A DNA stretch of 32,000 nt. It comes from an uncultured archaeon. Its GTDB lineage: Archaea > Iainarchaeota > Iainarchaeia > Iainarchaeales > DATDZZ01. Below the pieces are notes generated by a model. The model was not told the origin of the DNA, did no database searches, and worked only from the letters and a program-made list of their open reading frames with translations. A program made the translations under genes and the position numbers. Shown piece by piece: positions 1,193-18,038 of this stretch. Location of the stretch: contig CAYJVY010000004.1 of NCBI GenBank assembly GCA_964373795.1, forward strand, positions 30,001 through 62,000, read 5' to 3'. Numbering within the stretch: position 1 is the first letter of the stretch; each line of letters begins with the position of its first letter.

Positions 1193-1636
1193 TTGGAATT
1201 AGACAAGCTTGATAGAGAGATTTTGAATATTTTGCTTGAAAACTCTAAACTTGCATATAGGAAAATTGCTGAAAGAGTTGGAGTTGTACCTGCAACTGTA
1301 ATGCATAGAATTAAGAGGCTTGAAAACGAGAAAATAATCAAGAGTTATACTATAGATGTTGATACTGTTAAGACAGGATATGAATTTGAAGTATTAATTG
1401 ACATGGTTATTGATAAAGGCCAAGACTATTTAGTTTCAAGCCGAATTATTGATAATCCTCAAATTGCTAGAATTTATAAAATCACTGGAGCAATGGATGT
1501 AGAATTGGTTGCAAAATTTAAAACAAGAAAAGAATTGGATAAATTTCTTCAAACAATTCAAGAAATGGAGTACGTGAATAGAACTGAAACAAAACTGGTT
1601 TTAAACACAATTAAAAAATCCGAAGTAATAATTTAG
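1193..1636 (+). CDS. Lrp/AsnC family transcriptional regulator
   Basis: LDKLDREILNILLENSKLAYRKIAERVGVVPATVMHRIKRLENEKIIKSYT is a winged HTH, followed by an RAM/ACT-like C-terminal domain. The start codon is TTG. The 3' end overlaps orc1/cdc6 by 4 bp (convergent). Confidence 0.85.
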   Translation: MELDKLDREILNILLENSKLAYRKIAERVGVVPATVMHRIKRLENEKIIKSYTIDVDTVKTGYEFEVLIDMVIDKGQDYLVSSRIIDNPQIARIYKITGAMDVELVAKFKTRKELDKFLQTIQEMEYVNRTETKLVLNTIKKSEVII

Positions 1637-2760
1637 TCTCTTAATTCATTTAACACTAATTCTTTTGAAATCTTTAAAGAAATCATTCGAGTTTTTCCTC
1701 TCAAGTTTTCATTTAAATCAGCTGAAACCAGGTTTAAAGTATTAAGTCTTGAAATCAAATCCCTTAAACGGCGTTCAGTTAATTGTTGTTTTGACAACTT
1801 GTTAAATTTCATGTATAACTCGCCTGCAGAAATTGGTTTGAATTCTTGTGAAAGAATTTTCAGTAAAAGTTTTTCTGAATCACTTAAATGTTTTAAAAAT
1901 TTTTTTGCAGGAATGAAATCAATTACTTCAAATGCTTTTCTTAAATGCTGTAATGAAACTTTTTCAGAGTTTTCTTTTTCCGCTAAACGCCCGGCCTTTA
2001 ATAATGATTCAATTGCAATTCTGCAATCTCCTCCAAGCTTGGCTGCATGCGCCGCAGCAACATTTATTACTTCTTTTTCTAAAACATTTTCTTGAAACGC
2101 GTATTCAACTCTTTCTCTTAAAATATCTTTTAATTGTTGAGGAGAATATGGTTCAAATAAAATTCTTTCTTCAGTGAAAGAGCTTTTAACTCGTTCATCT
2201 AAATTAAAATTCATGTTCAAGTCGTTTGAAATAATTATTAATCCAACTCTTGCTTTCTTGAATTGAAAAACTCTAAGCAAGTCATACAAAATTTTTGATC
2301 CATCCTCGGATTTAAGTAATTGATCAAATTCATCTAAAACAATTAATGGAATGAAATCAATTTTTTCAAGTGATTCAAGAAAAACTGAATAAATTTCATC
2401 AGTTCCAAGGCCTCTTCTAGGAATTGCTCTTCCAAGAAAAGAAGTGATTGCACTTAAAACTGAATTACGAGTAGAATATTCAAAGCAATTAATGTAAATG
2501 CTTTTCGCGCGATCAGTGTAATCCTCTAATTCTTTTAAAACAAATCTCACTGTACAGGTTTTGCCTGTCCCAGTAGAGCCAAACACTGCAACATTTACTG
2601 GTTTTTTTCCATTAATTGCAGGTTTAAAGGCAAAAACAAGTGAATCAATTTCTTTTTCTCTGTGAGGCAAGCGTTCAGGTAAAAACTCGGGATACAAGTA
2701 AGATTCATTTTTAAAAATTTCATGAATTAAAGAACTTTCTTCAAACAAGTTTTTCTTCAT
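1633..2760 (-). CDS. orc1: Orc1/Cdc6 replication initiator (AAA+ ATPase with C-terminal winged helix)
   Basis: The N-terminus has PEFLPERLPHREKEI. Walker A is FGSTGTGKTCTV and Walker B is LIVLDEFDQL. The C-terminal winged-helix region is typical of archaeal Orc1/Cdc6. Confidence 0.92.
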   Translation of the reverse strand: MKKNLFEESSLIHEIFKNESYLYPEFLPERLPHREKEIDSLVFAFKPAINGKKPVNVAVFGSTGTGKTCTVRFVLKELEDYTDRAKSIYINCFEYSTRNSVLSAITSFLGRAIPRRGLGTDEIYSVFLESLEKIDFIPLIVLDEFDQLLKSEDGSKILYDLLRVFQFKKARVGLIIISNDLNMNFNLDERVKSSFTEERILFEPYSPQQLKDILRERVEYAFQENVLEKEVINVAAAHAAKLGGDCRIAIESLLKAGRLAEKENSEKVSLQHLRKAFEVIDFIPAKKFLKHLSDSEKLLLKILSQEFKPISAGELYMKFNKLSKQQLTERRLRDLISRLNTLNLVSADLNENLRGKTRMISLKISKELVLNELRD

Positions 2761-2913: not shown

Positions 2914-4464
2914 ATGACTCCCTTAGCTCCCAATTTAAGTACAGTGTACTTAACTAGTGTAAAATATTTTCCGGAAAAAAAAGAAGTATTAATTGAGTAC
3001 TCTAATTTGAGGGAAAAAATTACTCAAAAGCAAGTGTTTTTCCCTAAATTTTATTTTTCTTTAAAAGACATAAATGAAAATCTTTTCATTGAATTGCTTT
3101 CATTATATGATTCAAGAAAAATTAGAATTGAAAAAATTAATGAAATAGTGAAGGTTACTGCAAAGGATTTCACTGAATTGAAAAAAATTGCTAATTTAAT
3201 TAATTTTTCTTTAAAAAAACAGCCATTAATTTTGGGCCCGGAACGACAGTTTTTAATTGAAAACAATTTAAGTTATTTTGACTCATTTGCTTTAGAAAAA
3301 AATGGTTTAAAAAAAATAGAGTCTTTAGCAATTCCTGAAATTAAATTAGAATTTTTAACTTCGCCTTTAAATGATTCAGTTAAAGAATTGCTTTCAATTA
3401 ATTCTGAGACAACTGAAAAACTCGTGAACTCAGTTATTTACTCTAATTTGTTGTGCATGCCAGTTAATGAATTGCCTTCAAAAAATTCTTTGTTAATTGA
3501 ATTGTTTTTGGAGAAAATGTTTTTCAAACACGAATTTGATTTAAGTAAAGAGGAAAAAAAAGAGTTTTATTCAAGCGAGTTTCCTAAAAATTTAAGGCTT
3601 GAAAAAGATTTAACTGAAATTGATTTTTCATTTGTTTGGCCAACGCTTTTAAGCAAGTCTTTTTACAATATTGGATTTGAATCAATTAACTGTAAATGCT
3701 GTAAAACAAGTGACTTCAATGCAGAAAATGTCTTGCCTAATTCTTTAATTGAAGTAGAATTTCTTTCAGAAGGAACCTATTTTGAATCAAATAACATTAA
3801 ATGGAGAAAAGAGTTCCATGAAAAGCGTTCAGGGAAAGAGGAAAGGCTTAGAATGCAGAAAGAGTTTTACTTAAACTCTATTCCTATAGGGCCATTCAAT
3901 AAAGGAGTGAAAGAATTAATTCCTTTAACTGATGTAAAAAATTTATTGAAGAAAAACCAAGTAAGAATTTTATCAAATCATGGGCTTTACTGGTTTTGCG
4001 AGAAACGTGAAGCATTTTTATCTAAAGAAATTAATTCATTAAATGCTTTGCTTGAAAAAGTTTCAATTAAATGCAGTGAATTTGAAGAACGTTTTTTAAA
4101 AGAATTTAATTTAATGTCTTCAAATAAATTGCTTGAAAACCCTGAATTCTTTTACTTGAAATGCTTGAAAGAAGTTTTAAGTGAATTAATTTGTTTTACT
4201 CCGACTCACTTGTTTTCAGTTAACTCTAAGTTTTATTCAACTCAATTAACTGAAATAATTAAAACAATTCAAATTCAAACAATTAAAGAATTCCAAGAAT
4301 TCAGTAAAATTAAGGGAGCGAAATTCATTAACTTTAACAATTACAAGACATTCATTAACTCGGATTCAACGCTTAAATTGTTGAAAAACTTTTCTTTAAA
4401 ACAAAACATTCCCTTGCCGAAAATCAAGTTCTTTAAAACCAAGACTCATAATCCAAGCCACTAG
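2914..4464 (+). CDS. B-family DNA polymerase homologue lacking the 3'-5' exonuclease domain and the motif C catalytic aspartates (predicted catalytically inactive)
   Basis: The protein shows collinear PolB landmarks. The N-terminal domain has FFPKFYFSL and LGPERQFLIENNL, followed by LIELFLEK. A YxGG-like EFYSSEF is at aa 217-223. Motif A EIDFSFVWPTLL (D237) matches DxxxLYPS. Motif B-like QKEFYLNSIPIG matches KxxxNSxYG. Motif C RILSNHGLYW (aa 351-360) has SNH where YxDTDG has DTD. The spacing from motif A to motif B is 84 aa, as in Pfu-type PolB. No ExoI/II/III motifs are present, and the protein is only 516 aa versus about 775. Confidence 0.6.
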   Translation: MTPLAPNLSTVYLTSVKYFPEKKEVLIEYSNLREKITQKQVFFPKFYFSLKDINENLFIELLSLYDSRKIRIEKINEIVKVTAKDFTELKKIANLINFSLKKQPLILGPERQFLIENNLSYFDSFALEKNGLKKIESLAIPEIKLEFLTSPLNDSVKELLSINSETTEKLVNSVIYSNLLCMPVNELPSKNSLLIELFLEKMFFKHEFDLSKEEKKEFYSSEFPKNLRLEKDLTEIDFSFVWPTLLSKSFYNIGFESINCKCCKTSDFNAENVLPNSLIEVEFLSEGTYFESNNIKWRKEFHEKRSGKEERLRMQKEFYLNSIPIGPFNKGVKELIPLTDVKNLLKKNQVRILSNHGLYWFCEKREAFLSKEINSLNALLEKVSIKCSEFEERFLKEFNLMSSNKLLENPEFFYLKCLKEVLSELICFTPTHLFSVNSKFYSTQLTEIIKTIQIQTIKEFQEFSKIKGAKFINFNNYKTFINSDSTLKLLKNFSLKQNIPLPKIKFFKTKTHNPSH

Positions 4465-4540
4465 ATTTAAATATTTTTCTTTGTGTTAATACGTATATCA
4501 TTGGAAGTTATATTGCTGTTTTTTATTCCGAGTGTTGTTA

Positions 4541-4747
4541 ATGGTTAAACTAACTAGATTTGAAGTCACTAGATTGATTAGTGCTAGAGCAGTTCAATTG
4601 GCATTGGGAGCGCCTCAATTAGTTCAAGCTGAAGGAAATATTTCAATGGAAGACATAGCTAAACTTGAATTAAAGGAAAAGGTTTTACCTTTATCTGTTT
4701 TAAGGCAGCTTCCAACTGGGCAAATTCAAAGAATTGAAGTAATGTAA
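4541..4747 (+). CDS. rpoK: DNA-directed RNA polymerase subunit K (Rpo6 / Rpb6 homologue)
   Basis: LTRFEVTRLISARAVQLALGAPQLV matches the conserved Rpb6/RpoK core. The ATG at 4541 is preferred over the track's GTG at 4532. Confidence 0.9.
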   Translation: MVKLTRFEVTRLISARAVQLALGAPQLVQAEGNISMEDIAKLELKEKVLPLSVLRQLPTGQIQRIEVM

Positions 4748-4756
4748 AGTGATTTA

Positions 4757-4948
4757 ATGGGTAAAGCAGTTCCAAAAATAATTAAAAGCCGTGCAGAGTA
4801 TTTATTAAAAAAATTTCCTGAAAAATTTTCTAAAGACTTTGCAAAAAACAAGTTATCTTTAACTGAATTACATTTACCTTTATCACCTGTTTCAAGAAAC
4901 ATTCTCGCAGCTTTTATTGGAAGACAAAAAGCAAAAGAACAAGTTTAA
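4757..4948 (+). CDS. rps17e: 30S ribosomal protein eS17 (S17e)
   Basis: MGKAVPKIIKSRAEYLLKKFPEKFSKDFAKNK...SRNILAAFIGR follows the archaeal S17e pattern, and the 63-aa size is typical. Confidence 0.85.
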   Translation: MGKAVPKIIKSRAEYLLKKFPEKFSKDFAKNKLSLTELHLPLSPVSRNILAAFIGRQKAKEQV

Positions 4949-4999
4949 CCTAATTTGAAAACATTTTTATTTTTCTTCAATTTTGAAGTGGATAAATAA

Positions 5000-5446
5000 A
5001 TGAGTAAATTAAAACTTTCAAGTCCTTTTTTTGCAAATAATGCAAGAATTCCAGACAAATTTACTTGTAAAGGAGTAAATGTAAATCCCTTGCTAGAAAT
5101 TGAAGGAGTTCCTGAAAACACTAAAAGTTTTGCATTAATTGTTGACGATCCAGATGCTCCAATGAAGACATGGGTTCACTGGGTTTTATGGAATATTTCT
5201 CCAAGCACTAAAAAAATTGAAGAAAACTCTGTTCCAAAAGAAGCAATGCAAGGGGTAACAGATTTTGGTGAAAACAGGTATGGCGGGCCATGTCCTCCAA
5301 GCGGAACTCACAGGTATTTCTTTAAATTATATGCATTAAATTCAACTCTAAATATTTCAAAGAATTCAAAAAAAGAAGATTTAGAAAAAGCAATGCAAAG
5401 CCATATTTTAGCTCAAACTCAATTAATTGGTTTATACAGCAAATAA
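5000..5446 (+). CDS. PEBP family protein (YbhB/YbcL-type phosphatidylethanolamine-binding protein)
   Basis: IVDDPDAP...WVHWVLWNI...YGGPCPPSGTHRYFFKLYAL is the PEBP signature. Confidence 0.9.
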   Translation: MSKLKLSSPFFANNARIPDKFTCKGVNVNPLLEIEGVPENTKSFALIVDDPDAPMKTWVHWVLWNISPSTKKIEENSVPKEAMQGVTDFGENRYGGPCPPSGTHRYFFKLYALNSTLNISKNSKKEDLEKAMQSHILAQTQLIGLYSK

Positions 5447-5555
5447 TTATTAAATTTTCAGTGCCTAAAAAAATGCCTTACAAAAACAAAACCTATTTAT
5501 AATTGACACAGTATTGTTTTTCTATGAACTTTGAATTGAAGTTATTTTCAATTGC

Positions 5556-5629
5556 CTTAATTTTTTTAATTACTTTACTTAAATCAATCAAAACAACAAT
5601 GCTCCAAATTTAATATTAGTAATACTATA
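5556..5629 (-). repeat. Inverted, non-functional copy of the cca promoter-proximal region plus the first 15 codons (copy A of a 74-bp inverted repeat)
   Basis: The reverse complement of 5556-5629 equals 11564-11637 at 73 of 74 positions. The single mismatch (5598 versus 11595) turns the ATG into ATT. Weaker similarity continues for about 20 nt further. Confidence 0.95.
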
Positions 5630-5964
5630 TTCCTAAATTTAAGTTTGAAACTTCTTCATTTATTTCAAAAATTCTTGCAAAAATGGGGATGCCTACAGCT
5701 TTTTCTGCTGAAGCAGATTTTTCTGGAATTGATGGATCAAAAAATCTTAGTATTAATGAAGTAATTCACAAAGCTTTTGTTGAAGTGAATGAGGAAGGAA
5801 CAGAAGCAGCTGCAGCAACTGCTGTTACAATTGGGATAACTTCTGTTGGCCCACCATTAAATGAATTTAGAGCAGATCATCCATTTATTTTCTTAATTCA
5901 AGAAAAAGAAACTGGAAGCATTTTGTTTTTAGGAAAAGTTGTTGACCCAACTCAAACCAATTAA
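5623..5964 (+). pseudogene. Serpin gene remnant: only the C-terminal ~113 codons, including the reactive-centre loop
   Basis: The frame opens at 5623 and reads IPKFKFETSSFISKILAKMGMPTAFSAEADFSGI...VIHKAFVEVNEEGTEAAAATAV...FRADHPFIFLIQEKETGSILFLGKVVDP. These are the serpin hinge/RCL and C-terminal signatures. About 270 N-terminal residues of a normal serpin are missing. The upstream sequence is the cca-derived repeat. Confidence 0.85.
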
Positions 5965-7688
5965 ATTAATTTTTTGCTTACGTAAACTCCGTCTTGAGTA
6001 TAACCAAATTTTTTATAGTATGCTCGAGCACCAATTCCTGAAATAATGCATAACTTTTTTGCATCAAATTTTTCTCTAGAAATTTTTTCAGCTTCTTCTA
6101 AAAGCTTTTGTCCAAAACCTTTATGTTGAACTGCATCAAAACTTTTTTCTCCTAAAGCAAGTGCTTGACCATAAACATGCAGTTCTCGAATTCCTAAAGT
6201 GTTTTCAGTTATTTCTTTCCTAAAAGGCTTGAATGGAATTCGCAATCTGCAGAAACCTAAAAGCAAGTCATTTACAGTATCTTCAACTGAAATAAAGATT
6301 TCTTCAGAATTATTTGCTTCAAAAGATTCACTTAATATTTTCACTGCATTGAAATCAATTTCTTTTCCTTTTGGTTCTCTGCATCTAATGCATTTACATT
6401 TAATTCCAAGCTCTTTTTGCTTTAATTCAACGAATTGCCTTAAATTAGTGTTTTCAACTCCTGCTTCTGTTTGATTAGTTGGGATATCTCGTTGAATTCT
6501 CATTACTCTGCAATATTTTGGAATAAATCTTTTTCCTTCAGCAATTATTTTAGCTGCTTGTTCAGTTGAAATTGGATTAAATAATCCTTTTTCCCATAAT
6601 TGATGTAACCCTGTTCCTTGTAAAACCATGCAAGGATAAATCTTTAACGAGTCAGGCTTGAAGTCAGGGTTTGAAAATAATTCTTTAAATTCTTGGACGT
6701 TTTTCTCAGGAGTGGAATCAGGCAAGCCAGGCATTAAATGATAACCTATTTTTAAAAACGAGTCACGCATTAATTGAGTTGCTTTAATTGAGTCTTCAAC
6801 TGAATGCCCTCTATTTGTTTTCTTCAAAATTTTGTTTTCAAGCGATTGAACCCCTATTTCAACTCTAGTAGTTCCTAATTCAAGCATTTCATTAATATGT
6901 TTTTCAAAGCAATTATCTGGCTTTGTTTCAATGCATAAAGCAACACATTTAATTCTGCTTTCAAATTCATTTCTTTTTTGCTCGAATTTTAAATCCGCTT
7001 CTCCTTTTAATGTTAAAAGCTTTGAATTAATTCTTTCATTTCTTTCCTTTGACTTAATGTCTTGAAAAGGCAATTCAAAGAATTCATTAAATTTTTTAAA
7101 ATCAATTTCATTTTTATTGTAAAAGGTTTCAGAAAAATCATTCAATGCTTTAAAAATGTTTGAAACAAATTCAATTTGATAAGTTCTAGACATTGCAGGA
7201 AAAGTTCCTCCTTGAATTATTACTTCAATTTTTTCAGGGCAATGCCCTAAAGCAGTATAAGTTTCTAATCTGTTCATTGCAATTAAATAAGAATCATAAT
7301 TATTGCGAATTGCTCTCATTGTTGAAGGTTCTTTTCCTGTATAACTTTGAGGTACGTCTCCAAACGGAGAATTCAATCCGCCTGGACAAAAAATGCAAGT
7401 GCCATGAGGACAATTAAATGGTTTTGTCATGCAAGCAATTGTTGCAACTCCTGAAATAGTTCGCACAGGTTTCATTAACAAGATTTCTTTAACCTTTTTT
7501 CCACTGCCTTCAGAAAAAGAAAAAATACTTGAATTAGTTGGAACTTTTTCAATTCCTATTTCAACACACAGAGTTCTTTTTCGTTTACTGAATTGATCTC
7601 TATTACTTATTTTTCCTTCTTGAATTTCTTTAATTATTTGTTCACTAAATTTTTTCAGTTTCAAGTCAAGCAATGCAATTGAAGTCAT
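5961..7688 (-). CDS. elp3: Elp3 homologue (radical SAM plus GNAT acetyltransferase; tRNA U34 carboxymethylation)
   Basis: The radical SAM cluster region is CPHGTCIFCPGG. The TIM-barrel core has VEIGVQS. The C-terminal GNAT domain has QHKGFGQKLLEEAEKI. The length is 575 aa. Confidence 0.92.
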   Translation of the reverse strand: MTSIALLDLKLKKFSEQIIKEIQEGKISNRDQFSKRKRTLCVEIGIEKVPTNSSIFSFSEGSGKKVKEILLMKPVRTISGVATIACMTKPFNCPHGTCIFCPGGLNSPFGDVPQSYTGKEPSTMRAIRNNYDSYLIAMNRLETYTALGHCPEKIEVIIQGGTFPAMSRTYQIEFVSNIFKALNDFSETFYNKNEIDFKKFNEFFELPFQDIKSKERNERINSKLLTLKGEADLKFEQKRNEFESRIKCVALCIETKPDNCFEKHINEMLELGTTRVEIGVQSLENKILKKTNRGHSVEDSIKATQLMRDSFLKIGYHLMPGLPDSTPEKNVQEFKELFSNPDFKPDSLKIYPCMVLQGTGLHQLWEKGLFNPISTEQAAKIIAEGKRFIPKYCRVMRIQRDIPTNQTEAGVENTNLRQFVELKQKELGIKCKCIRCREPKGKEIDFNAVKILSESFEANNSEEIFISVEDTVNDLLLGFCRLRIPFKPFRKEITENTLGIRELHVYGQALALGEKSFDAVQHKGFGQKLLEEAEKISREKFDAKKLCIISGIGARAYYKKFGYTQDGVYVSKKLI

Positions 7689-7709
7689 TCAAAACACAAC
7701 TAAATTTAG

Positions 7710-8522
7710 TTATTGAAATAAAAAACTTATAAAAGAATTAAATAAATAAAACGAAAGCATTGAAGGAGAAAAAACAGGCAATCCAGTCAAAGCTGCTTCG
7801 AATTTTTTCTTTAAAACTGGTTGAACAGTTAATTCAATTGGAATTAAATCAATTAATTCTCCATTTGAAACAGATTCAACTTTAAACTTGAATTGCTTTA
7901 ATCCATAAATTCTCGGATTAACTTTTAATTGAACTTCTTTTTTTTCACCTGCTTTTAATTCAAATTCTTTTTCTTCAAACCATAGTTTCTCTAAATCACT
8001 TGAAACCTTTAATTTGTGATCTGCAATTGAATTGTTAACTAAAGTTAAGTTAAAAGTTGTTTCCTCTCCTACAAAAGTTTTTTTCACTGTTTCAGGCAAG
8101 CTAATTGAAACCAATCCTTTTTTTACAGGAATTCTAATTTTAATTGATTCTGATTCAAGCAAGTTTTTTTCATCAACTGCTTTTACTTTAAACTCATATT
8201 CTTTGTTTGCTTCAGCATCTTTTGCAACAAGTACTTGCACTTCAAACACTTTTTGGTTTTTCTCTGAATCAATTGCTCTCCAATTTTTTGGAAGAGAATC
8301 TTTTTCAACAATTATTTGACTCCATTTAGTGTTAACAGTTGAAACCCCTGGATCGTTTGAAATTTTAAAAGAAAAAGTTTCTCCTGGTTGAACTGCATTC
8401 AATAAATGCCTTTCATTTGGTTGGTATGAAAATTTTTGAGTTTCAGTTATAACACTAATTAAGGCAAGGCCTTGCATTGAAAAAGCAAGCAAGAACACTA
8501 AAACTAAGAGTTTTTTTAACAT
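7710..8522 (-). CDS. Hypothetical cell-surface protein (signal peptide, beta-rich Ig/CARDB-like repeats, C-terminal hydrophobic anchor)
   Basis: The N-terminus is MLKKLLVLVFLLAFSMQGLA. The body is beta-rich with K/E/V-rich repeats. The C-terminal hydrophobic tail is LPVFSPSMLSFYLFNSFISFLF. Confidence 0.6.
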   Translation of the reverse strand: MLKKLLVLVFLLAFSMQGLALISVITETQKFSYQPNERHLLNAVQPGETFSFKISNDPGVSTVNTKWSQIIVEKDSLPKNWRAIDSEKNQKVFEVQVLVAKDAEANKEYEFKVKAVDEKNLLESESIKIRIPVKKGLVSISLPETVKKTFVGEETTFNLTLVNNSIADHKLKVSSDLEKLWFEEKEFELKAGEKKEVQLKVNPRIYGLKQFKFKVESVSNGELIDLIPIELTVQPVLKKKFEAALTGLPVFSPSMLSFYLFNSFISFLFQ

Positions 8523-8590
8523 TGTTATCCTACAATAATTTACTATAACAATACTTTTAAAGAATTACTGAAAAACAAAAAGTGATTTAA

Positions 8591-9190
8591 TTGACTAAAA
8601 ACATTGAAGAAATCAGGTTTGAAATGGTTAAAAAAAGGCATTCAGAAAGCCTTTCAAAAGCCATTAAAGAAGGAAAAGCAGATGAAAGAGTTATTCCTTT
8701 CCTGAAAAAAATTGCTGAAACACAAAATTTTTTTACTTCTTCTAGTTGTTGTGGAAGAATTTTATTACTCGGCTTGAAAGGAAAAGGATTAAAAAAAGAC
8801 TCTTATTTTCACTTCAAAAAACATAGAACTGTTTCATTCAAAGAAATTTGGGGTTCTCTTCAAAAAAAATCAATCGGAGTTTTATGGTTTAAAATAGAGC
8901 CATTCATTTTACACATTGGAGCAAAAAATTTAGAGAACACTGAAAGAATTTTAAAAGTAATGAAGGAAAGCGGAATAAAAAGAGGAGGAATAATTGTTAC
9001 AAAAAAAGGAAAATTCTTAACAGAATTACTTGGCACTCAAATGCTTTCAGTTCCAGTAAAAGAAAAAAACAAAATCTTAATTGAAAAAAAATTCTTAAAA
9101 TACTTAATTAAAATTGCAAACAAAAAATTAATTGAAAACTACAATTTATTGAAAAAATTTGAAGAACAATGCTTAAAAGAATTCGACTAA
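8591..9190 (+). CDS. taw3: tRNA wyosine-derivative methyltransferase Taw3/TYW3 family
   Basis: FFTSSSCCGRILLL matches the TYW3 family hallmark (T/S)SSC(S/C)GRI. The ~200-aa size is typical. The start codon is TTG. Confidence 0.75.
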   Translation: MTKNIEEIRFEMVKKRHSESLSKAIKEGKADERVIPFLKKIAETQNFFTSSSCCGRILLLGLKGKGLKKDSYFHFKKHRTVSFKEIWGSLQKKSIGVLWFKIEPFILHIGAKNLENTERILKVMKESGIKRGGIIVTKKGKFLTELLGTQMLSVPVKEKNKILIEKKFLKYLIKIANKKLIENYNLLKKFEEQCLKEFD

Positions 9191-9372
9191 CACGCCGTTC
9201 AGCCGGCGAGGCTGAGTCAAAAGCCGGCGAGGCTGAGTGTTCGTGTTGGCATCGCGCTTGCCGCGCAAGACGGCAGCTGAAAGTCGATGTCGGCCTCGTG
9301 TCGACGCACGAGACATCGCAGCCGACAAAGCTGAGGCAAGCGTCGAACGTGAAGCCGACGAAGCTGAACCCC
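9191..9372 (+). other. GC-rich (63%) repeat- and hairpin-dense intergenic island; candidate structured ncRNA or GC-cluster element of unknown class
   Basis: I counted 113 G/C in positions 9191-9370. There are four direct copies of AGCCGRCRARGCTGAR at 9201, 9222, 9320 and 9353. An interrupted hairpin spans 9285-9318 and a second hairpin spans 9257-9269. A closing helix pairs GTTCAGC (9197-9203) with GCTGAAC (9363-9369). The strand is assigned only because both neighbouring genes are on +. Confidence 0.5.
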
Positions 9373-9399
9373 TCATATGATTTGAGAAGTGAAACTTAA

Positions 9400-9921
9400 A
9401 TGAATAAAAGATTGTTTTTAGCAATTAATTTGCCTTTAGAATTAAAGGAAAAAATTTTTGAAACTTTTTCGAAAAAATTGCCAAAAGATTTAAAGATTGT
9501 GAAAAAAGAAAACATTCATTTAACACTGCTTTTTATAGGGTATTATCCTGAAGAAAAAATCGCAGAATTAAAGGAAAAACTTTCAGAAATCGAATTCAAT
9601 TCATTTGAATTAAAGTTAAACTCTCTTGGAACTTTTAATGGAAGAGTTATCTGGCTTGGAGCTGTAAAAGGAAAAGAAAAATTCAAGGAATTAAGTGAAA
9701 AAATTCAGGAAAAAATCGGAGTAAAAGATAATAGAATTTCCGCTCATTTAACTTTGGCTAGAAACAAGTTTTTGAAATTAAAAGAAATAAAAGAGTTGAT
9801 TTCAAAAATTAATGCAGGCTTTAATGAAACAATTTTAGTGAAAAGCTTTGAATTAATGGAATCCAAATTAACTCCTAAAGGATCAATTTATTTTATTGAA
9901 GCCAGTTTTAAGTTAACATAA
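9400..9921 (+). CDS. thpR: RNA 2',3'-cyclic phosphodiesterase / 2'-5' RNA ligase family (2H phosphoesterase, ThpR/LigT)
   Basis: Two HxT motifs are present at the canonical spacing: IHLTLLFIG and AHLTLAR. The length is 173 aa. Confidence 0.88.
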   Translation: MNKRLFLAINLPLELKEKIFETFSKKLPKDLKIVKKENIHLTLLFIGYYPEEKIAELKEKLSEIEFNSFELKLNSLGTFNGRVIWLGAVKGKEKFKELSEKIQEKIGVKDNRISAHLTLARNKFLKLKEIKELISKINAGFNETILVKSFELMESKLTPKGSIYFIEASFKLT

Positions 9922-11481
9922 TTAGGTTTTAGCAATTTTATCTAAAACTGCTTCTTCATTGAAATAGTATTCTTGAATTATTTTTTCAACATCTGGATCG
10001 AATGAAATGTTTTGTTGCTGCATCCATTCCAGAATGCGTTGCCTTATAACTATTTCATCTTTTAATGCCTTTTTATTTAACCCTGTTTTCTCGCTTAATT
10101 CTTGCATTACATGGCTTGGAACATCAGTTCTATAAATTGTTTCTTTTGCTGGATCAAATTCAAAAATATTTCCAAGTAAAACTTTTTCACCCATTCTGCT
10201 TACCTCTGTTACTTGACTAACTCTTCTAATCATTCCTTTTTCTCTGTCAAAAATTCTTTGAGTTACAACAATTAAGTCAAGCAAGGGAAGCATTTGTTCA
10301 GGAACATTCATTGGAGGATTTTTTAATCTAATAATCATTTCATTAGCATTATTAGAATGCAGTGTACCCATTATTCCTTTATGACCTGTATCCATTGCAA
10401 CAAACAATGTTTCAGCTTCTGAGCCTCGAACTTCTCCAACAATTATTCTATCAGGGCGCATTCTCAAAGAATTTTTTAACAAGTCATCCATGGTAACTTC
10501 AGGGATTTCTCTAGTAGGAGGGTGCGTTTCCATTTGAATCCAATTATCTCTTTCACCTAAACTTATTTCAATAGTGTCTTCAATTGAAATAATTCTCTCC
10601 CTATAAGGAATTAAAGTCGTTAACGCGTCAAGTAAAGTTGTTTTCCCTGAACCAGTTCCTCCAGTAATAATCATATTCATTGGCTCAATTCCTTTTCCTT
10701 CAACCATTAACCAAAGAAAAGCTGCTAACTCGCTTGAAATAGTTTTATTATTAATTAAATCAATAATTGAAATAGGTGAATAACTAAATTTTCTAATAGT
10801 TAAAGAAGTTCCAAAAGGAGTTATACTTGGATAAGTAGCATTTGCTCTAGAGCCATCTGGAAGCCTTGCATTCAATAAAGGATACTGAGAAGAAAATTTT
10901 CTACTAGAATAATTTGAAATCCTTATTGCAAGATCCAAAATTGCTCCATCGTGTTTTGGAACAAAAATATTTGTTTTACAAAAACCAAACTTTCTATGAT
11001 AAACAAAAATGTTTTTGTTTTCTCCATTCACCATTATTTCCTCTAACTGTGTTTCCCTCATTAAAGGAGATAAAACATCATACCCAATAGTGAAATCAAT
11101 TATTTTGTTTACAACTGTTGCAATATTTTTAATTGAATCTTTTTGACGAGTTAAAATCGGAAGTAAGTCAACCTTAAATTTTTTAACAAAATTCGAGGAA
11201 GGTAGTTTTTCAAATAATTTTTCTTCTTCAATTTTTTTAGAGGTTTCCTCTAACACTTTTTTTTCTTCAGAGTTAAGTTTGCCAAAATGTTTTTCAAGCT
11301 CAGTTAAAGAAGCCTTCTTAAGAAAAAAATCTTGCAATAATTTAACAACTTTTTCCTCTTGCTCTGAAATAACTGGATCAACTACTTCAAAAAAATTGTA
11401 AGGAAATCCTTCAAAGATATTTGATTCAGGGAAAGACTGCACTTTTTTTCCTTTAAAGAATTCAAACCTATTTTCAGTCAT
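9922..11481 (-). CDS. Type II/IV secretion-system ATPase (archaeal FlaI/ArlI-PilB-VirB11 family)
   Basis: Walker A is ITGGTGSGKTTLLDAL. The Asp box/Walker B region is RIISIEDTIE ... PDRIIVGEVRG. The His box is MGTLHSN. No FlaJ/TadC-like platform gene is adjacent. Confidence 0.9.
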   Translation of the reverse strand: MTENRFEFFKGKKVQSFPESNIFEGFPYNFFEVVDPVISEQEEKVVKLLQDFFLKKASLTELEKHFGKLNSEEKKVLEETSKKIEEEKLFEKLPSSNFVKKFKVDLLPILTRQKDSIKNIATVVNKIIDFTIGYDVLSPLMRETQLEEIMVNGENKNIFVYHRKFGFCKTNIFVPKHDGAILDLAIRISNYSSRKFSSQYPLLNARLPDGSRANATYPSITPFGTSLTIRKFSYSPISIIDLINNKTISSELAAFLWLMVEGKGIEPMNMIITGGTGSGKTTLLDALTTLIPYRERIISIEDTIEISLGERDNWIQMETHPPTREIPEVTMDDLLKNSLRMRPDRIIVGEVRGSEAETLFVAMDTGHKGIMGTLHSNNANEMIIRLKNPPMNVPEQMLPLLDLIVVTQRIFDREKGMIRRVSQVTEVSRMGEKVLLGNIFEFDPAKETIYRTDVPSHVMQELSEKTGLNKKALKDEIVIRQRILEWMQQQNISFDPDVEKIIQEYYFNEEAVLDKIAKT

Positions 11482-11563
11482 ACAATAAATTAATGAATTA
11501 ATAAATATTTAAACGTTGCTTTAAATTTGCTGCAAACAAGGAAAGAAAACTTAAATATAGTTC

Positions 11564-11637
11564 TATAGTATTACTAATATTAAATTTGGAGCATGGTTGT
11601 TTTGATTGATTTAAGTAAAGTAATTAAAAAAATTAAG
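11564..11637 (+). repeat. Copy B of the 74-bp inverted repeat (29 bp upstream of cca plus its first 45 nt)
   Basis: See the feature at 5556-5629. This copy contains a TATA-like tatagtatt, an SD-like ggag and the functional cca ATG at 11593. Confidence 0.95.
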
Positions 11638-12978: not shown

Positions 12979-12988
12979 TTAAGAGTAC

Positions 12989-13597: not shown

Positions 13598-13648
13598 AGT
13601 ATAACCAACTAATAAAATTTTTTAAAAATTTTGCGAACGACGTGCAAA

Positions 13649-13723
13649 CGAGCCTGGTGGGATTCGAACCCACGATCCCGTCGTCCGAAGCGACGTGCGA
13701 TATCCAGACTACGCTACAGGCCC
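13649..13723 (-). tRNA. tRNA-Arg (anticodon UCG); the 3' CCA is not encoded
   Basis: The minus-strand sequence folds as a cloverleaf. The acceptor stem is GGGCCTG/CAGGCTC with one G-U pair. The anticodon stem CGTCG/CGACG carries the loop CTTCGGA, giving anticodon TCG. The T arm is GTGGG-TTCGAAT-CCCAC. The discriminator is G, followed by TTTG rather than CCA. No intron is present. Confidence 0.9.
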
Positions 13724-13725
13724 AC

Positions 13726-14103: not shown

Positions 14104-14114
14104 TTGGAATTTGT

Positions 14115-14375: not shown

Positions 14376-14377
14376 AG

Positions 14378-15636: not shown

Positions 15637-18036
15637 ATGATTAAAAGAATTGTTTTAGAGAACTGGAAAAGCCACAAGCATTCTGAATTCGAATTCGATA
15701 AAGGAACAAATATTTTAGTTGGAGCAATTGGAGCTGGAAAAAGCAGTATAATGGATGCTATTTGCTTTGCTTTATTCGGAACTTATCCAATGCTTAACTC
15801 TAAAAAAATTGCTTTAGAAGAAACCATAATGCGCAAGCCAAACGAATGCGAATACGCAAAAGTATTACTAGAATTTCAATTCAAAGAAAAAAATTATTCA
15901 ATTGAAAGAATTATTACCAAAGGAAAAGCAAATCAAGCAAAACTTTTTCAAACAGGACAATTCATGGTTGGCCCAAAACCAACAGACGTAACTGAAAAGG
16001 TTGAAGAAATACTTGAATTAAATTATGAATTGTTTTCCAGAGCAGTTTACTCTGAACAAAACCAAATAGACTTTTTTTTAAAATTAAATCCAAGTCAAAG
16101 AAAAGAAAAATTTGACGATTTACTTGAATTAAAAAAATATGAAAGAGTTCGAACAAATTCTGTAAGCGTTGCAAACAGATTAAAAAAAATAATTGAGGAT
16201 AGAAAAAAACTCTTAAAAGAAGAAGAACTAAAATTAAATGAAAACGAATTAAGTTCACTAGAAGAAAAAATATTAGAAAAAAATGACTTACTAAATAAAT
16301 TGATTGAAGAAATAAATGCAAACGAAAAAAAAGTAATTGTTTTAGAACAACAAGTAAAAGAATTAGAAGAAAAATCAATTGAATTCTTTTTCTTAAAAGA
16401 ATTAAAAATCAAAACCCAAACAAAAATAAGTGAATCAATTAAATTCATTCAAGCAATTGAATCGGAAACCAATAAAAAACTTGAAGAATTAGAAGAACTA
16501 AAACTAAGCGAGTTAAAAAAAGAATTAGAAGAACAAATCCAAATCCAGAGCGAAAAAAAAGAAGAATTAATTAAATCAAAAAACCAATTAGAGCTAATTA
16601 ATAATAAAATTTTATTTCATTTACAGGAAAAAAAAACAAAGCTAAAAGAAGTTCCAAAAGAAATTGATTCAATTGAAAAACTTTTAAAGTTTATTCAAGT
16701 TTTAGAGGCAAGTGAACTAGAATTAAAAGAGTTTTTAAAAGAATTAAAATCTTTAATTGAAGCAAAACAGCAATCCTTGAATGAATTAATTCAAGAGGAA
16801 AGCATTAGCAAAGCTCTTTTAACTGAGACAGAAAAGCATTTGCATTCATTAGAAAATGCCCATTCAAAATGCCCTACCTGTAAAAAAGACTTGGATTTTG
16901 AAAGCCAAAAACAATTAATTAAAGAAAGCATTGAATTAGTTCAACACTTGAATCGAAAAATTCAAAATGCATTTAATTCAAAAACAAAAAATGAAAAAGA
17001 GTTAAATGAGTTGAAGAAAACAATTGGATTAAAAGAAAACGAATTACTTGAATTAAAGGAAAAAATAAATAAAACAAAAAGCTTAAGCAAAGTCTTTGAC
17101 TTAATTGAATTAGTCAATGTAGAAGTAAAAAAGCTAAGTGAGTTAAAGGAAAGCCAAGAAATCTTGATTTTGGGATTAAAAAACGAATTCCGCGAAGAAG
17201 AGTTGAAGGCTAAACAAAAAGAATTAAATGGTTTTGAAAAACTATTTAATGCATTACAGAAAAACACAGAAGTACAAGAATTAGAAAAAGAATTAAATTC
17301 TATAGAGAGAAGAATTGTTGAATTAAATTTCGATGAAAAAAATTTGAATGAATTTAAAAAAATATTTATTGAAGAAAAGGAAAGAAAAAATTCTCTTGAA
17401 AAACAAGTTAATTCAATAAAAGAATTAATTCAAGAAATTGGAAAAAATATTTATTCTATTAAGGATAGAAAAAAACAGTTAATTGAATTAAAAGAAAAAA
17501 ACAATTCAATGGAGTTAATGACTAACAAATTGAATTTATTTACAAATTCCTTAAAAGCAACTCAAGCAGAGTTAAGAGAATTATTAATTGATTCAATTAA
17601 TCAAGCAATGCAAGATATTTGGCCAAGAATTTATCCATACAAGGATTTTGTTAACATAAAAATTGAAATTCAGGAAGGAGATTATGAAATACTTGTTGAA
17701 GAAAAAAATGGGAAATGGATTAGAGTTGAAGGAATTTTAAGTGGAGGAGAAAGATCTGCAGTGGCATTAACTATTAGGATTGCGGTTTCATTAGTGTTAG
17801 CTCAAAATCTTTCATGGTTGATATTAGATGAACCAACACATAACTTGGATTCAGCTGCTGTAACAGAGTTAAGTAATTTAATGCGAGAACACTTGCCTGA
17901 ATTAGTTGAACAAATATTTGTAATAACTCATGACAAAGAAATGGAAAAAGCAGCTACTGGTTCACTATACTTTTTAGACAGAAATAAAAACGAAGAAGGA
18001 ATAACCAAGCCATTATTAGAGCAAATGGAAGGATAA
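15637..18036 (+). CDS. rad50: Rad50 DNA double-strand-break repair ATPase
   Basis: Walker A is GAIGAGKSSIMDAI, and the Q-loop region is YSEQNQ. Long K/E-rich coiled coils carry a central zinc hook, CPTC. The signature motif is LSGGERSAVALTIRIA, Walker B/D-loop is LILDEPTHNLD, and the H-loop is VITHD. Confidence 0.9.
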   Translation: MIKRIVLENWKSHKHSEFEFDKGTNILVGAIGAGKSSIMDAICFALFGTYPMLNSKKIALEETIMRKPNECEYAKVLLEFQFKEKNYSIERIITKGKANQAKLFQTGQFMVGPKPTDVTEKVEEILELNYELFSRAVYSEQNQIDFFLKLNPSQRKEKFDDLLELKKYERVRTNSVSVANRLKKIIEDRKKLLKEEELKLNENELSSLEEKILEKNDLLNKLIEEINANEKKVIVLEQQVKELEEKSIEFFFLKELKIKTQTKISESIKFIQAIESETNKKLEELEELKLSELKKELEEQIQIQSEKKEELIKSKNQLELINNKILFHLQEKKTKLKEVPKEIDSIEKLLKFIQVLEASELELKEFLKELKSLIEAKQQSLNELIQEESISKALLTETEKHLHSLENAHSKCPTCKKDLDFESQKQLIKESIELVQHLNRKIQNAFNSKTKNEKELNELKKTIGLKENELLELKEKINKTKSLSKVFDLIELVNVEVKKLSELKESQEILILGLKNEFREEELKAKQKELNGFEKLFNALQKNTEVQELEKELNSIERRIVELNFDEKNLNEFKKIFIEEKERKNSLEKQVNSIKELIQEIGKNIYSIKDRKKQLIELKEKNNSMELMTNKLNLFTNSLKATQAELRELLIDSINQAMQDIWPRIYPYKDFVNIKIEIQEGDYEILVEEKNGKWIRVEGILSGGERSAVALTIRIAVSLVLAQNLSWLILDEPTHNLDSAAVTELSNLMREHLPELVEQIFVITHDKEMEKAATGSLYFLDRNKNEEGITKPLLEQMEG

Positions 18037-18038
18037 AA

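What the first reader, a model, noticed from the sequence alone, without database searches (positions are those of the whole stretch)
2914..4464. Miniaturised PolB homologue without exonuclease domain or motif C aspartates, divergent from orc1/cdc6
Seen in the sequence: the 516-aa product shows collinear PolB landmarks at the right spacing. The N-terminal domain has FFPKFYFSL and LGPERQFLIENNL, followed by LIELFLEK. A YxGG-like EFYSSEF is present. Motif A is EIDFSFVWPTLL (D237, codon 3622-3624). Motif B-like is QKEFYLNSIPIG, 84 aa after motif A. Motif C is RILSNHGLYW, with SNH (3973-3981) where DTD should be. The roughly 170-aa region that should carry ExoI/II/III is absent: the sequence goes from the N-terminal domain at about aa 145 directly to the pre-palm region at about aa 180. 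Established knowledge: the second Asp of the DTD triad is essential for polymerisation. A family of inactivated archaeal PolBs that still retain a degenerate exonuclease domain has been described (Rogozin, Makarova, Pavlov and Koonin). Inference: this is a catalytically dead, exonuclease-less PolB derivative. It may have a structural or regulatory role at the replisome or origin, given its head-to-head position with orc1/cdc6 across a putative origin. It could represent an undescribed PolB-derived family in small-genome archaea.
Basis: partly seen in the sequence, partly recalled or inferred. Interest (0 to 1): 0.75.

Follow-up and report, generated by a model that had tools for sequence, protein, structure and literature searches.

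The report
Dead mini-PolB with GINS-like insert
This gene encodes a shrunken, catalytically dead relative of family B DNA polymerases, found throughout one group of tiny archaea (Iainarchaeota), that has lost its proofreading and thumb domains, gained a cysteine-clamped insert resembling a replication-helicase (GINS) docking domain, and so probably acts as a scaffold rather than an enzyme.

Summary
The 516-aa ORF (2914-4464, +) is real. It founds a conserved family of about 180 clusters, nearly all from Iainarchaeota/Diapherotrites, with no Pfam or NCBIfam model. An AlphaFold model (pLDDT 87) matches only family B polymerases (Foldseek E about 1e-10), and profile searches confirm this.

Its motif B and motif C are misplaced. 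Both lie inside a roughly 100-aa insertion. The true fingers are aa 363-433. The degenerate motif C hairpin is aa 469-483 (NNY replaces DTD). The protein ends about 30 residues later, so the thumb is missing too.

The best-conserved part is the insertion. It is clamped by four near-invariant cysteines (C260, C262, C263 and C362) at the palm hairpin where Pol epsilon carries its CysX Fe-S cluster and P-domain. Its core resembles a GINS B-domain.

The orc1 adjacency is not conserved (0 of 33 other species). The conserved order is nurA-herA-X-rpoK-rps17e, with rad50 convergent.

The most likely role is a non-catalytic scaffold in replication or repair. This is a new variant of the known "inactivated PolB" theme.

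The parts
2914..4464 (+). Whole ORF (516 aa plus stop): inactivated mini-PolB ('X')
   Evidence: ORF list. Homologues. AF2 pLDDT 86.9. Foldseek hits to PolBs only.
2914..3318 (+). aa 1-135: PolB N-terminal domain, containing invariant P44 (FFP) and the R111-Q112-F113-L114 motif
   Evidence: Beta-rich secondary structure. Low-confidence alternative hhalign alignment Q13-125 = Pfu 2-130 (P=0.22). Conservation.
3319..3597 (+). aa 136-228: short linker and helices replacing the roughly 196-aa exonuclease domain. It leads into the pre-palm helix LIELFLEK.
   Evidence: hhalign Q173-268 = Pfu 330-434. pLDDT<50 at 216-226. There is no room for ExoI/II.
3598..3690 (+). aa 229-259: motif A strand and helix (EIDFSFVWPTLL...N252-I-G254). 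The D237 codon is 3622-3624.
   Evidence: hhalign and HMMER alignments to Pfu and Pyrobaculum motif A. D237 is conserved in only 68/92 members.
3691..3999 (+). aa 260-362: insertion in the palm hairpin, clamped by C260, C262 and C263 (3691-3702) and C362 (3997-3999). This is the most conserved part of the family.
   Evidence: Each Cys is present in 91/92 members. C263 = Pfu C428. C362 = Pfu C442 in a low-confidence alignment and = human POLE C747. Stand-alone AF2 model pLDDT 93.
3859..3984 (+). aa 316-357: GINS B-domain-like core (IPIGPF...IPLTD..L...VRIL).
   Evidence: Foldseek of the insertion model: about 40 of the top 50 hits are GINS subunits, and the top hit is the Gins51 C-terminal domain 5ghr_B (prob 0.98, TMt 0.70, rmsd 2.0). 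hhalign vs PSF2 gives P=1.7e-4 to 4e-4. Pfam PSF2_N or Gins51_C weak hits in 8 members. HMMER hit to Psf2 6raw_L, E=1.1.
4000..4212 (+). aa 363-433: fingers, two long helices. The motif B position lacks K/N/Y-G.
   Evidence: Secondary structure H368-407 and H410-433. HMMER and hhalign alignments to the fingers/motif B of 5mdn, Pol alpha and Pol epsilon. K416 is present in 21/92 members.
4213..4317 (+). aa 434-468: palm helix (NSKFYS...), equivalent to ARWY..AESVTA of PolB
4318..4362 (+). aa 469-483: degenerate motif C hairpin AKFINFNNYKTFINS. N475-N476-Y477 replace DTD.
   Evidence: HMMER alignment to 5mdn VIYGDTDSLFV. No conserved acid in these columns. The hairpin is absent altogether in a roughly 425-430-aa subfamily.
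4363..4461 (+). aa 484-516: last palm helix and strand. The protein ends at the palm/thumb border, so there is no thumb.
   Evidence: Secondary structure. The low-confidence alternative alignment ends at about Pfu 590. Only about 33 residues remain after motif C.
1633..2760 (-). orc1/cdc6, divergent neighbour. This adjacency is specific to this genome.
   Evidence: Pfam Cdc6_lid/AAA_22/Cdc6_C. Orc1 is absent from all 37 related loci.
4532..4948 (+). rpoK (4532-4747) and rps17e (4757-4948): conserved downstream partners of X
   Evidence: Pfam. RpoK is downstream in 28/33 species loci, with a median gap of about 65 bp.
15637..18036 (+). rad50. In other Iainarchaeota it lies immediately after rps17e and convergent with it. 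Here it has been moved by an inversion.
   Evidence: Pfam. Synteny.

Best explanation
X is a family B DNA polymerase paralogue, specific to Iainarchaeota, that has been stripped down to a non-enzymatic scaffold.

Shown:
- It keeps the PolB N-terminal domain, the motif A part of the palm, the fingers helices and a degenerate motif C hairpin.
- It has lost the exonuclease core, the thumb and all conserved catalytic and dNTP-binding residues.
- A roughly 100-aa domain is inserted in the palm hairpin between motif A and the fingers.
- The ends of that insertion carry four near-invariant cysteines, three at one end and one at the other.
- The insertion is the most conserved part of the protein.

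Supported at modest significance: the core of the insertion has a GINS B-domain-like fold and sequence motif.

Inferred:
- The cysteines bind a metal (Zn or Fe-S) that staples the insertion. This is topologically like the CysX cluster at the base of the Pol epsilon P-domain, and like the C428-C442 disulfide of Thermococcales PolB.
- The protein works as an adaptor. The polymerase remnant provides a platform that possibly binds DNA. The GINS-B-like domain docks a partner of the kind that binds real GINS B-domains, either a RecJ/GAN (Cdc45-like) nuclease or the N-terminal domain of the PolD small subunit.
- This would tie X to the replisome or to replication-coupled repair, in the way the dead polymerase half of Pol epsilon serves the eukaryotic CMG helicase.
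For: - PolB fold: Foldseek PDB top hits are all archaeal PolBs (E=3e-10, prob 1.0), with 155 hits at E<1e-3. The viral library also returns only PolBs.
- Sequence support: the A2 profile vs PDB sequences gives Pyrobaculum PolB at E=9e-4 with two collinear stretches, followed by Pol alpha, Pol epsilon and KOD at the same region. hhalign vs Pfu gives P=5e-4. hhalign vs a Pol epsilon profile gives P=0.012.
- Inactivation: motif A Asp in 68/92 members, no conserved acid at motif C, motif B Lys in 21/92. A subfamily lacks the motif C hairpin entirely.
- Constraint on the insertion: C260, C262, C263 and C362 are each present in 91/92 members. G326 is in 92/92, P327 in 91, R311 in 89, W360 in 88 and D340 in 86.
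- GINS-B likeness.
- Known function of the closest structural match: Gins51C binds GAN and PolD DP1N simultaneously (PMC9023282).
[quoted passage not shown] C362 aligns to POLE C747.
- Housekeeping character: the gene is present in 33 species-level Iainarchaeal genomes in a conserved core-gene neighbourhood.
Against: - No partner has been identified, and no interaction could be modelled here.
- The GINS-B similarity is short (about 35-55 residues). The individual Foldseek E-values are above 0.1.
- No RecJ/GAN, GINS, MCM or PolD gene is linked to X. One DHH gene lies next to X in L037, but it is unique and looks like a small phosphoesterase.
- The conserved neighbours are nurA, herA and rad50 (repair) and rpoK and rps17e, not replisome genes.
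- Whether the Pol epsilon P-domain and this insertion are homologous is unproven (P=0.2).
Confidence: 0.5

Rival explanations
1. X is an accessory factor of the archaeal double-strand-break end-resection machinery (HerA-NurA with Rad50). For example, it could be an adaptor standing in the operon position normally held by Mre11, perhaps recruiting a nuclease through the GINS-B-like domain.
For: - The order nurA-herA-X on one strand is conserved: HerA is upstream in 29/33 species loci, with a gap of 42-95 bp in 7 of them.
- rad50 is convergent just downstream in 26/33 loci.
- No Metallophos/Mre11 gene is seen within about 10 kb in the Pfam-annotated loci. There is no phmmer hit to Pfu Mre11 even at E<=10.
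- The canonical archaeal cluster is herA-mre11-rad50-nurA (established knowledge).
Against: - X has a polymerase fold, not a phosphoesterase fold, and no nuclease-like conserved residue set.
- In about 20 loci unrelated genes (Na/Ca exchanger, HTH, VTT, glycosyltransferase), some on the opposite strand, sit between herA and X.
- In this window and in the L028/L030/L037 group the herA linkage is broken while X persists.
- The tightest linkage is with rpoK-rps17e.
- Synteny within one phylum may be inherited rather than functional.
- Mre11 may simply be encoded elsewhere. This could not be checked.
Confidence: 0.25
2. X acts at the replication origin together with Orc1/Cdc6.
For: - X is head-to-head with orc1 across 153 bp in this window.
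- The RFC large subunit lies about 5 kb further upstream.
Against: - Orc1 is next to X in 0 of 33 species loci and 0 of 4 metagenome loci.
- The window arrangement results from rearrangements at both flanks of the X-rpoK-rps17e unit.
- There are no ORB-like repeats in the intergenic region, and no clear skew switch.
Confidence: 0.04
3. X is still an enzyme, either a polymerase or primase-like nucleotidyl transferase using non-canonical residues, or a redox or other enzyme built around the Cys cluster.
For: - Primer-independent PolBs lack the first motif C Asp yet are active (PMC7544198).
- Several polar residues in and around the insertion are highly conserved: H302 (83/92), R311 (89/92), D340 (86/92), N252 and N272.
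Against: - No position equivalent to the metal-binding Asp residues is conserved.
- Motif A Asp is replaced by N, S, Q or P in a quarter of members.
- The motif C hairpin is dispensable in a subfamily.
- There is no thumb to hold the primer-template duplex.
Confidence: 0.06

Closest known systems
Archaeal family B DNA polymerases (B3/B1 type, e.g. Pyrococcus, Thermococcus, Pyrobaculum and Sulfolobus PolB)
   Same: The overall fold gives the best structural matches. The N-terminal domain is shared. The motif A region is recognisably similar in sequence. The fingers, palm helix and motif C hairpin are collinear. Family C263 and C362 sit where Pfu has the C428-C442 disulfide.
   Different: There is no exonuclease core and no thumb. 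There are no conserved motif A, B or C catalytic residues. A roughly 100-aa insertion replaces the 13-residue hairpin. The protein is about 510 aa rather than about 775. No member reaches the Pfam DNA_pol_B model even at E<=10.
Known inactivated PolB derivatives: archaeal PolB2 (Rogozin et al. 2008), the C-terminal half of Pol epsilon (Tahirov et al. 2009; Pfam DUF1744) and poxvirus F12
   Same: The same evolutionary theme applies: a PolB that has lost catalytic residues and is kept for another role. The essential role of the Pol epsilon C-half is as a structural component bound to CMG (PMC7544198). Two family members give weak DUF1744 hits (E about 0.02).
   Different: PolB2 and Pol epsilon-C retain (degenerate) exonuclease and thumb regions, whereas X has deleted both. 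X has a Cys-clamped GINS-B-like insertion that none of them is reported to have. X is restricted to Iainarchaeota. No significant sequence link to any of them was found.
Pol epsilon catalytic core: CysX [4Fe-4S] motif and P-domain
   Same: The insertion point is the same, the palm hairpin between motif A and the fingers. The arrangement of three Cys before and one Cys after the insertion is the same. C362 aligns with human POLE C747, the fourth CysX ligand.
   Different: The Cys spacing differs: C-x-C-C versus C-x2-C-x8-C. The inserted domain does not detectably match the P-domain (hhalign P=0.2, and there are no Pol epsilon hits among the top 50 Foldseek matches of the insertion). Pol epsilon is an active enzyme. 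The metal content of X is unknown.
GINS B-domains (Gins51 C-terminal domain, Psf2/Psf3 N-terminal domain, Psf1/Sld5 C-terminal domain)
   Same: The small beta-beta-alpha-beta fold and the G-P-F...G...P-L..A..L...I signature are shared. The best structural match is the Gins51 C-terminal domain from the GAN complex.
   Different: X has no GINS A-domain and is not a GINS subunit. The domain is embedded in a polymerase palm. The statistical support is modest.

Membership tests
Family B DNA polymerase (active enzyme) | PolB fold with N-terminal domain, palm and fingers | tested here: met
   Foldseek E=3e-10, prob 1.0, to many PolB structures. The viral library also returns only PolBs. HMMER and hhalign hits.
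Family B DNA polymerase (active enzyme) | 3'-5' exonuclease domain with ExoI/II/III | tested here: not met
   Only about 37 residues (136-172) lie between the N-terminal domain and the region aligned to Pfu 330 onward, against 196 in Pfu. No conserved DxE or Nx3FD motif is present.
Family B DNA polymerase (active enzyme) | Motif A catalytic Asp (DxxSLYPS) | tested here: not met
   The motif is recognisable, but the Asp is present in only 68/92 members (N 11, S 3, E 3, Q 3, P 2).
Family B DNA polymerase (active enzyme) | Motif B KxxxNSxYG in the fingers | tested here: not met
   At the aligned position, Lys is present in 21/92 members and there is no conserved N, S, Y or G.
Family B DNA polymerase (active enzyme) | Motif C DTD | tested here: not met
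   The aligned hairpin is FINF-NNY-KTFI. Acidic residues occur in at most 6/92 members at either Asp column. The hairpin is absent in a subfamily.
Family B DNA polymerase (active enzyme) | Thumb domain | tested here: not met
   The protein ends about 33 residues after motif C. The alignment ends at about Pfu 590, the palm/thumb border.
Inactivated archaeal PolB2 family (Rogozin et al. 2008) | Full-size PolB architecture with degenerate exonuclease domain and thumb, detectable as DNA_pol_B | tested here: not met
   There is no exonuclease core and no thumb. No Pfam DNA_pol_B hit appears in any of 92 members at E<=10. A direct comparison with PolB2 sequences was not run.
Pol epsilon-type CysX/P-domain | Three Cys before and one Cys after an insertion in the palm hairpin preceding the fingers | tested here: met
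   C260, C262 and C263 plus C362 are each present in 91/92 members. C362 = POLE C747. The topology matches that described in PMC6582351.
Pol epsilon-type CysX/P-domain | Inserted domain homologous to the P-domain | tested here: inconclusive
   hhalign P=0.2 against POLE and against a 65-sequence Pol epsilon profile. No Pol epsilon hit appears in the top 50 Foldseek matches.
Pol epsilon-type CysX/P-domain | Binds a [4Fe-4S] cluster | not testable with these tools
   This needs purified protein (UV-vis, EPR, ICP). Even the Cys-Cys distances in the model could not be read.
GINS subunit | B-domain fold and signature | tested here: met
   Foldseek top hits are Gins51C, Psf2, Gins23 and Psf1 (prob up to 0.98, but E>=0.26). 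hhalign P=1.7e-4. Pfam PSF2_N hits in 6 members and Gins51_C in 2. The significance is modest.
GINS subunit | Alpha-helical A-domain forming the tetramer | tested here: not met
   The helices after the insertion align to the PolB fingers and palm, not to a GINS A-domain. The long GINS alignments have rmsd 12-14 Å.
Mre11 | Calcineurin-like phosphoesterase domain with His/Asp metal motifs | tested here: not met
   No Metallophos Pfam hit. The fold is PolB. There is no phmmer similarity to Pfu Mre11.

The most novel reading that the evidence does not exclude
Iainarchaeota have independently evolved the Pol epsilon solution. In this reading, a dead family B polymerase module is kept as a structural replisome subunit, and it carries its own GINS-B-type docking domain, stapled by a metal (possibly Fe-S) cluster at exactly the palm position of the Pol epsilon CysX/P-domain. 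If the insertion and cluster are in fact homologous to those of Pol epsilon, then the CysX/P-domain architecture, currently regarded as unique to Pol epsilon orthologues, would have an archaeal counterpart outside Asgard.
Probability: 0.25. Interest if true: 0.8.

Novelty: new variant of a known kind. Interest (0 to 1): 0.62.

Why it matters
Inactivated polymerases reused as scaffolds are rare but important. The dead half of Pol epsilon is the essential part of that enzyme.

This family is the most reduced PolB derivative I could find evidence for, lacking both the exonuclease domain and the thumb. It is conserved across a whole DPANN lineage, and its selective constraint has moved from the active site to an inserted, cysteine-clamped, GINS-B-like domain.

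It offers three things:
- A tractable system for asking what a polymerase fold is good for once catalysis is gone.
- A possible missing component of the poorly known DPANN replisome or of the HerA-NurA-Rad50 repair machinery.
- A second, independent example of a metal-stapled insertion at the palm hairpin where Pol epsilon has its Fe-S cluster.

The gene is currently annotated only as a hypothetical protein and has no Pfam or NCBIfam model.

Tried and rejected
- Direct sequence searches of the protein against Pfam, NCBIfam and PDB sequences gave nothing meaningful: DtxR E=0.02, an aldolase E=0.03, and a Pol alpha C-terminal fragment E=1.1.
- My own first guess was that W360-F-C362 corresponds to the Pfu 'RWYCKEC' segment after motif B. 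This was rejected. HMMER and hhalign place WFC at the start of the fingers (Pfu HKFC442, POLE C747), and place 'NSKFYS' at the RWY position.
In addition, the 'SNH' hairpin tip carries a 22-aa insertion in some homologues.
- A profile of the insertion alone against PDB sequences found nothing.
- Homology of the insertion to the Pol epsilon P-domain is not supported (P=0.2).
- The search for related loci with the 92- and 16-sequence alignments failed because there was no conserved stretch. An 8-sequence alignment worked.
- I looked for Mre11 in the gene that sometimes sits between herA and X. That gene is a Na/Ca exchanger, an HTH protein, a VTT protein and so on, not Mre11.
- I looked for an alternative informative context in the divergent subgroup (L028, L037). 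I found only a unique DHH gene and an MBL gene.
- ORB-like origin repeats in the orc1-X spacer: none beyond AT-rich chance matches.
- The last large protein search (human PSF2) returned only vertebrate orthologues and improved the profile little.
- Supplementary tables on replisome gene counts per archaeal lineage were not available.
- I could not establish whether Iainarchaeota encode canonical PolB, PolD, GINS or Mre11. Nothing relevant lies within the window or about 5-8 kb beyond it, apart from the RFC large subunit.
Full report
**The observation**

The ORF 2914-4464 (+) exists and encodes 516 aa. It lies divergent to a bona fide orc1/cdc6 gene (1633-2760, minus strand; Pfam Cdc6_lid, AAA_22 and Cdc6_C). 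It is followed by rpoK (4532-4747) and rps17e (4757-4948). On its own the protein hits nothing in Pfam, NCBIfam or PDB sequences.

**A real, conserved family**

A word-indexed search found 16 homologues of about 500 aa at 30-46% identity. Those that carry names are labelled 'Candidatus Diapherotrites archaeon' hypothetical proteins.

An exhaustive profile search of 1.84 billion representatives found 183 hits. None of the 150 listed exceeds 546 aa.

A scan of one genome per GTDB species found 33 loci, almost all titled Candidatus Iainarchaeum. The gene is therefore a conserved component of Iainarchaeota (Diapherotrites, DPANN) and not a spurious ORF.

**It is a PolB derivative**

- An AlphaFold2 model built from the 16-sequence alignment is confident (pLDDT 86.9, pTM 0.84).
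- Foldseek against the PDB returns only family B polymerases at the top: Pyrococcus abyssi, KOD, Tgo, Pyrobaculum and Sulfolobus B1. E-values go down to 3e-10 with probability 1.0, and 155 hits have E<1e-3.
- The viral structure library also returns only PolBs.
- At the sequence level, a 92-member profile (A2) hits Pyrobaculum PolB (5mdn) at E=9e-4 through two collinear stretches. Pol alpha, Pol epsilon and KOD follow at the same region.
- hhalign against Pfu PolB gives P=5e-4 for residues 173-268 against Pfu 330-434.
- hhalign against a 65-sequence Pol epsilon profile gives P=0.012 for residues 355-468.

The N-terminal beta-rich domain is aa 1-135. It contains the invariant FFP and PERQFLIE motifs. 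It aligns to Pfu 2-130 only in a low-confidence alternative alignment (P=0.22), so its assignment rests mainly on the fold match.

Only about 37 residues separate this domain from the segment aligned to Pfu 330 onward, where Pfu has a 196-residue exonuclease domain.

LIELFLEK and motif A (EIDFSFVWPTLL...NIGFESIN) are correctly identified.

The 'YxGG-like' EFYSSEF lies in a variable loop with pLDDT below 50 and is not a conserved feature.

They lie inside an inserted domain. The alignments to 5mdn, Pol alpha, Pol epsilon and Pfu place the remaining elements as follows:

| Element | Residues | Notes |
|---|---|---|
| Fingers | 363-433 | Two long helices, 368-407 and 410-433 |
| Palm helix | 434-468 | 'NSKFYS..L' corresponds to 'ARWY..AESVTA' |
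| Motif C hairpin | 469-483 | AKFINF-NNY-KTFINS |

The protein ends about 33 residues after the hairpin, at the equivalent of about Pfu 590, which is the palm/thumb border.

**Catalytic residues**

Counts across 92 members:
- The motif A Asp is present in only 68. The others have N, S, E, Q or P.
- The two Asp columns of motif C hold acidic residues in at most 6 members each.
- The motif B Lys position is Lys in 21.

A subfamily of about 425-430 aa (for example loci L034-L036) lacks the motif C hairpin and everything after it. It still retains 100% of the insertion and the fingers. Polymerase activity is therefore very unlikely.

**The insertion, where the selective constraint sits**

In Pfu the segment between motif A and the fingers is a 13-residue hairpin closed by the C428-C442 disulfide (that disulfide is recalled from the Tgo/KOD structure literature, not tested here). 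X has about 100 residues at this position (aa 260-362).

The insertion starts with C260-x-C262-C263 and ends with W360-x-C362. Each of the four Cys is present in 91/92 sequences. Together with G326, P327, R311, W360 and D340 they are the best-conserved positions in the family.

In the alignments, C263 falls on Pfu C428. C362 falls on Pfu C442 in a low-confidence alignment. C362 also falls on human POLE C747. The POLE fragment and its numbering were verified against 7pfo_B.

C747 is the human equivalent of yeast C763, the fourth ligand of the Pol epsilon CysX [4Fe-4S] cluster. [quoted passage not shown] It is described as unique to Pol epsilon (PMC6582351; PMC7544198). X therefore shows the same 3+1 topology at the same insertion point.

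Homology of the inserted domain to the P-domain is not supported (hhalign P=0.2).

**The insertion looks like a GINS B-domain**

Four lines of evidence point the same way:
- Profile searches against PDB sequences repeatedly produced a weak hit to Psf2 (6raw_L, E=1.1) over GPF..G....PL..A..L.
- Scanning all 92 members against Pfam at E<=10 gave PSF2_N in 6 members (best E=0.0049) and Gins51_C in 2. The only other family seen in more than one member was DUF1744, in 2.
- hhalign of the insertion alignment (A4) against human PSF2 gave P=4.2e-4. The PSF2 sequence was verified against 2e9x_B. Against a vertebrate PSF2 profile it gave P=1.7e-4 with 34% identity over 35 columns, matching window aa 320-354 to PSF2 28-62.
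- A separate AF2 model of aa 228-375 (pLDDT 93.2) was searched with Foldseek. No hit reached E<1e-3. However, about 40 of the top 50 hits are GINS subunits. The top hit is the Gins51 C-terminal B-domain from the GAN complex (5ghr_B; probability 0.98, TMt 0.70, rmsd 2.0 Å). Psf2, Sulfolobus GINS chains (9moj_C/D), Tko Gins51 and Psf1 follow.

Each line is modest on its own, but they agree. X has no GINS A-domain and is not a GINS subunit.

**Genomic context**

Orc1 is absent from all 33 species loci and from 4 metagenome loci.

The conserved order is nurA(+), herA(+), sometimes one unrelated gene, X(+), rpoK(+), rps17e(+), rad50(-), EF1-beta(-), and further on CCA(-), T2SSE(+), LigT(-), TYW3(-) and Elp3.

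Counts among the 33 species loci:
- HerA upstream: 29
- RpoK downstream: 28, with a median gap of about 65 bp
- Rad50 convergent: 26

In the window the Rad50-to-Elp3 block is inverted, and nurA-herA are replaced upstream by Lrp-Orc1. The X-rpoK-rps17e trio has therefore survived rearrangements on both sides.

No Mre11 or Metallophos gene is present in these neighbourhoods. The genes that sometimes intervene between herA and X are unrelated. The 153-bp orc1-X spacer shows no ORB-like repeats.

**How it most likely works**

Shown: X is a PolB fold with the catalytic apparatus, exonuclease domain and thumb removed. Its constraint is concentrated on a Cys4-bounded GINS-B-like insertion. It is a phylum-wide, single-locus core gene.

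Inferred: the four cysteines bind Zn or an Fe-S cluster that staples the insertion to the palm. The protein acts as a non-catalytic adaptor.

[quoted passage not shown] That arrangement is conserved with Psf1C-Cdc45-Dpb2N in eukaryotes (PMC9023282). I therefore favour a model in which the insertion docks such a partner and the polymerase remnant supplies a platform that possibly binds DNA. This would be an archaeal analogue of the dead polymerase half of Pol epsilon.

My confidence levels are:
- About 0.9 that X is an inactive PolB without exonuclease domain or thumb.
- About 0.7 that the insertion is GINS-B-like.
- About 0.4 for the replisome-adaptor role.
- About 0.25 for the main rival, an accessory of the HerA-NurA/Rad50 end-resection machinery. 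It is favoured by synteny only.
- Low for the origin/Orc1 role and for residual enzymatic activity.

**Novelty**

Inactivated PolBs are already known: PolB2, Pol epsilon-C and poxvirus F12. The kind is therefore not new.

I found no description of this family in the library. The comprehensive PolB survey (PMC7544198), the 2014 archaeal polymerase review (PMC4104785) and a 2025 replisome survey (PMC12680538) do not mention an Iainarchaeal PolB without exonuclease domain or thumb. No Pfam or NCBIfam model covers it.

Its architecture (no exonuclease domain, no thumb, a metal-stapled GINS-B-like insertion at the Pol epsilon CysX/P-domain site) is a distinct new variant.

**Limits**

- Model coordinates could not be inspected, so Cys clustering is inferred from alignment and topology only.
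- No partner could be tested.
- The presence of canonical PolB, PolD, GINS and Mre11 in these genomes could not be checked.

Noticed in passing
window 4949-18461 compared with L005-L037: Relative to 30 or so other Iainarchaeota, the block rad50-EF1beta-...-CCA-T2SSE-LigT-TYW3-Elp3 is inverted in this genome. In addition, nurA-herA upstream of X are replaced by Lrp-orc1. The X-rpoK-rps17e unit is intact between the two breakpoints.
   Followed up: partly
window 5000-5964: A PEBP-family gene (5000-5446) and a 93-aa C-terminal serpin fragment (5683-5964; Pfam Serpin positions 283-370 of 370) sit exactly at the inversion breakpoint after rps17e. The serpin is truncated, because there is no room upstream for the remaining roughly 280 aa. 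It is probably a gene remnant.
   Followed up: partly
L001 6611-8932 and 12064-15711; also L006, L012, L013, L015, L026, L027 HerA: HerA and Rad50 in several related Iainarchaeal loci are greatly enlarged. In L001 they carry intein domains: Intein_splicing in both, plus LAGLIDADG_3 in Rad50 (1215 aa).
   Followed up: no
window 15637-18036; L001-L037: rad50 has no adjacent mre11 in this window or in any related locus. No Metallophos gene is seen within about 10 kb of the nurA-herA-X-rad50 neighbourhood. Whether Iainarchaeota have Mre11 elsewhere is unknown.
   Followed up: partly
L034-L036; P0114, P0123, P0126, P0129, P0131: A shorter subfamily of X (about 425-430 aa) ends after the palm helix and lacks the motif C hairpin and the C-terminal strand. 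It keeps the insertion and the fingers intact.
   Followed up: partly
L008 and L010: Two GTDB records titled 'Candidatus Falkowbacteria bacterium' and 'Thaumarchaeota archaeon' carry the typical Iainarchaeal herA-X-rpoK-rps17e synteny. They are probably mis-binned or mislabelled contigs.
   Followed up: no
A2 members: Two family members give weak Pfam hits (E about 0.02) to DUF1744, the domain of the inactive C-terminal half of Pol epsilon. This could be chance or a faint real signal.
   Followed up: no
L037 8802-9680 (minus strand): In one divergent locus a 293-aa DHH-family phosphoesterase lies divergent to X. The arrangement is unique among the loci, and the protein is too small for a typical GAN/RecJ.
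   Followed up: partly
window 19938-21424: A 357-aa ORF with no Pfam hit (19938-21011) lies directly upstream of a gene for an endonuclease related to the archaeal Holliday-junction resolvase (21050-21424), next to pelota (21440-22495).
   Followed up: no
L038 192-1619 (about 5 kb left of the window start): The RFC large subunit gene lies a few kb upstream of Lrp-orc1-X in this genome. Three replication-related genes (RFC-L, orc1, X) are therefore loosely clustered here, though not in the other Iainarchaeota examined.
   Followed up: no
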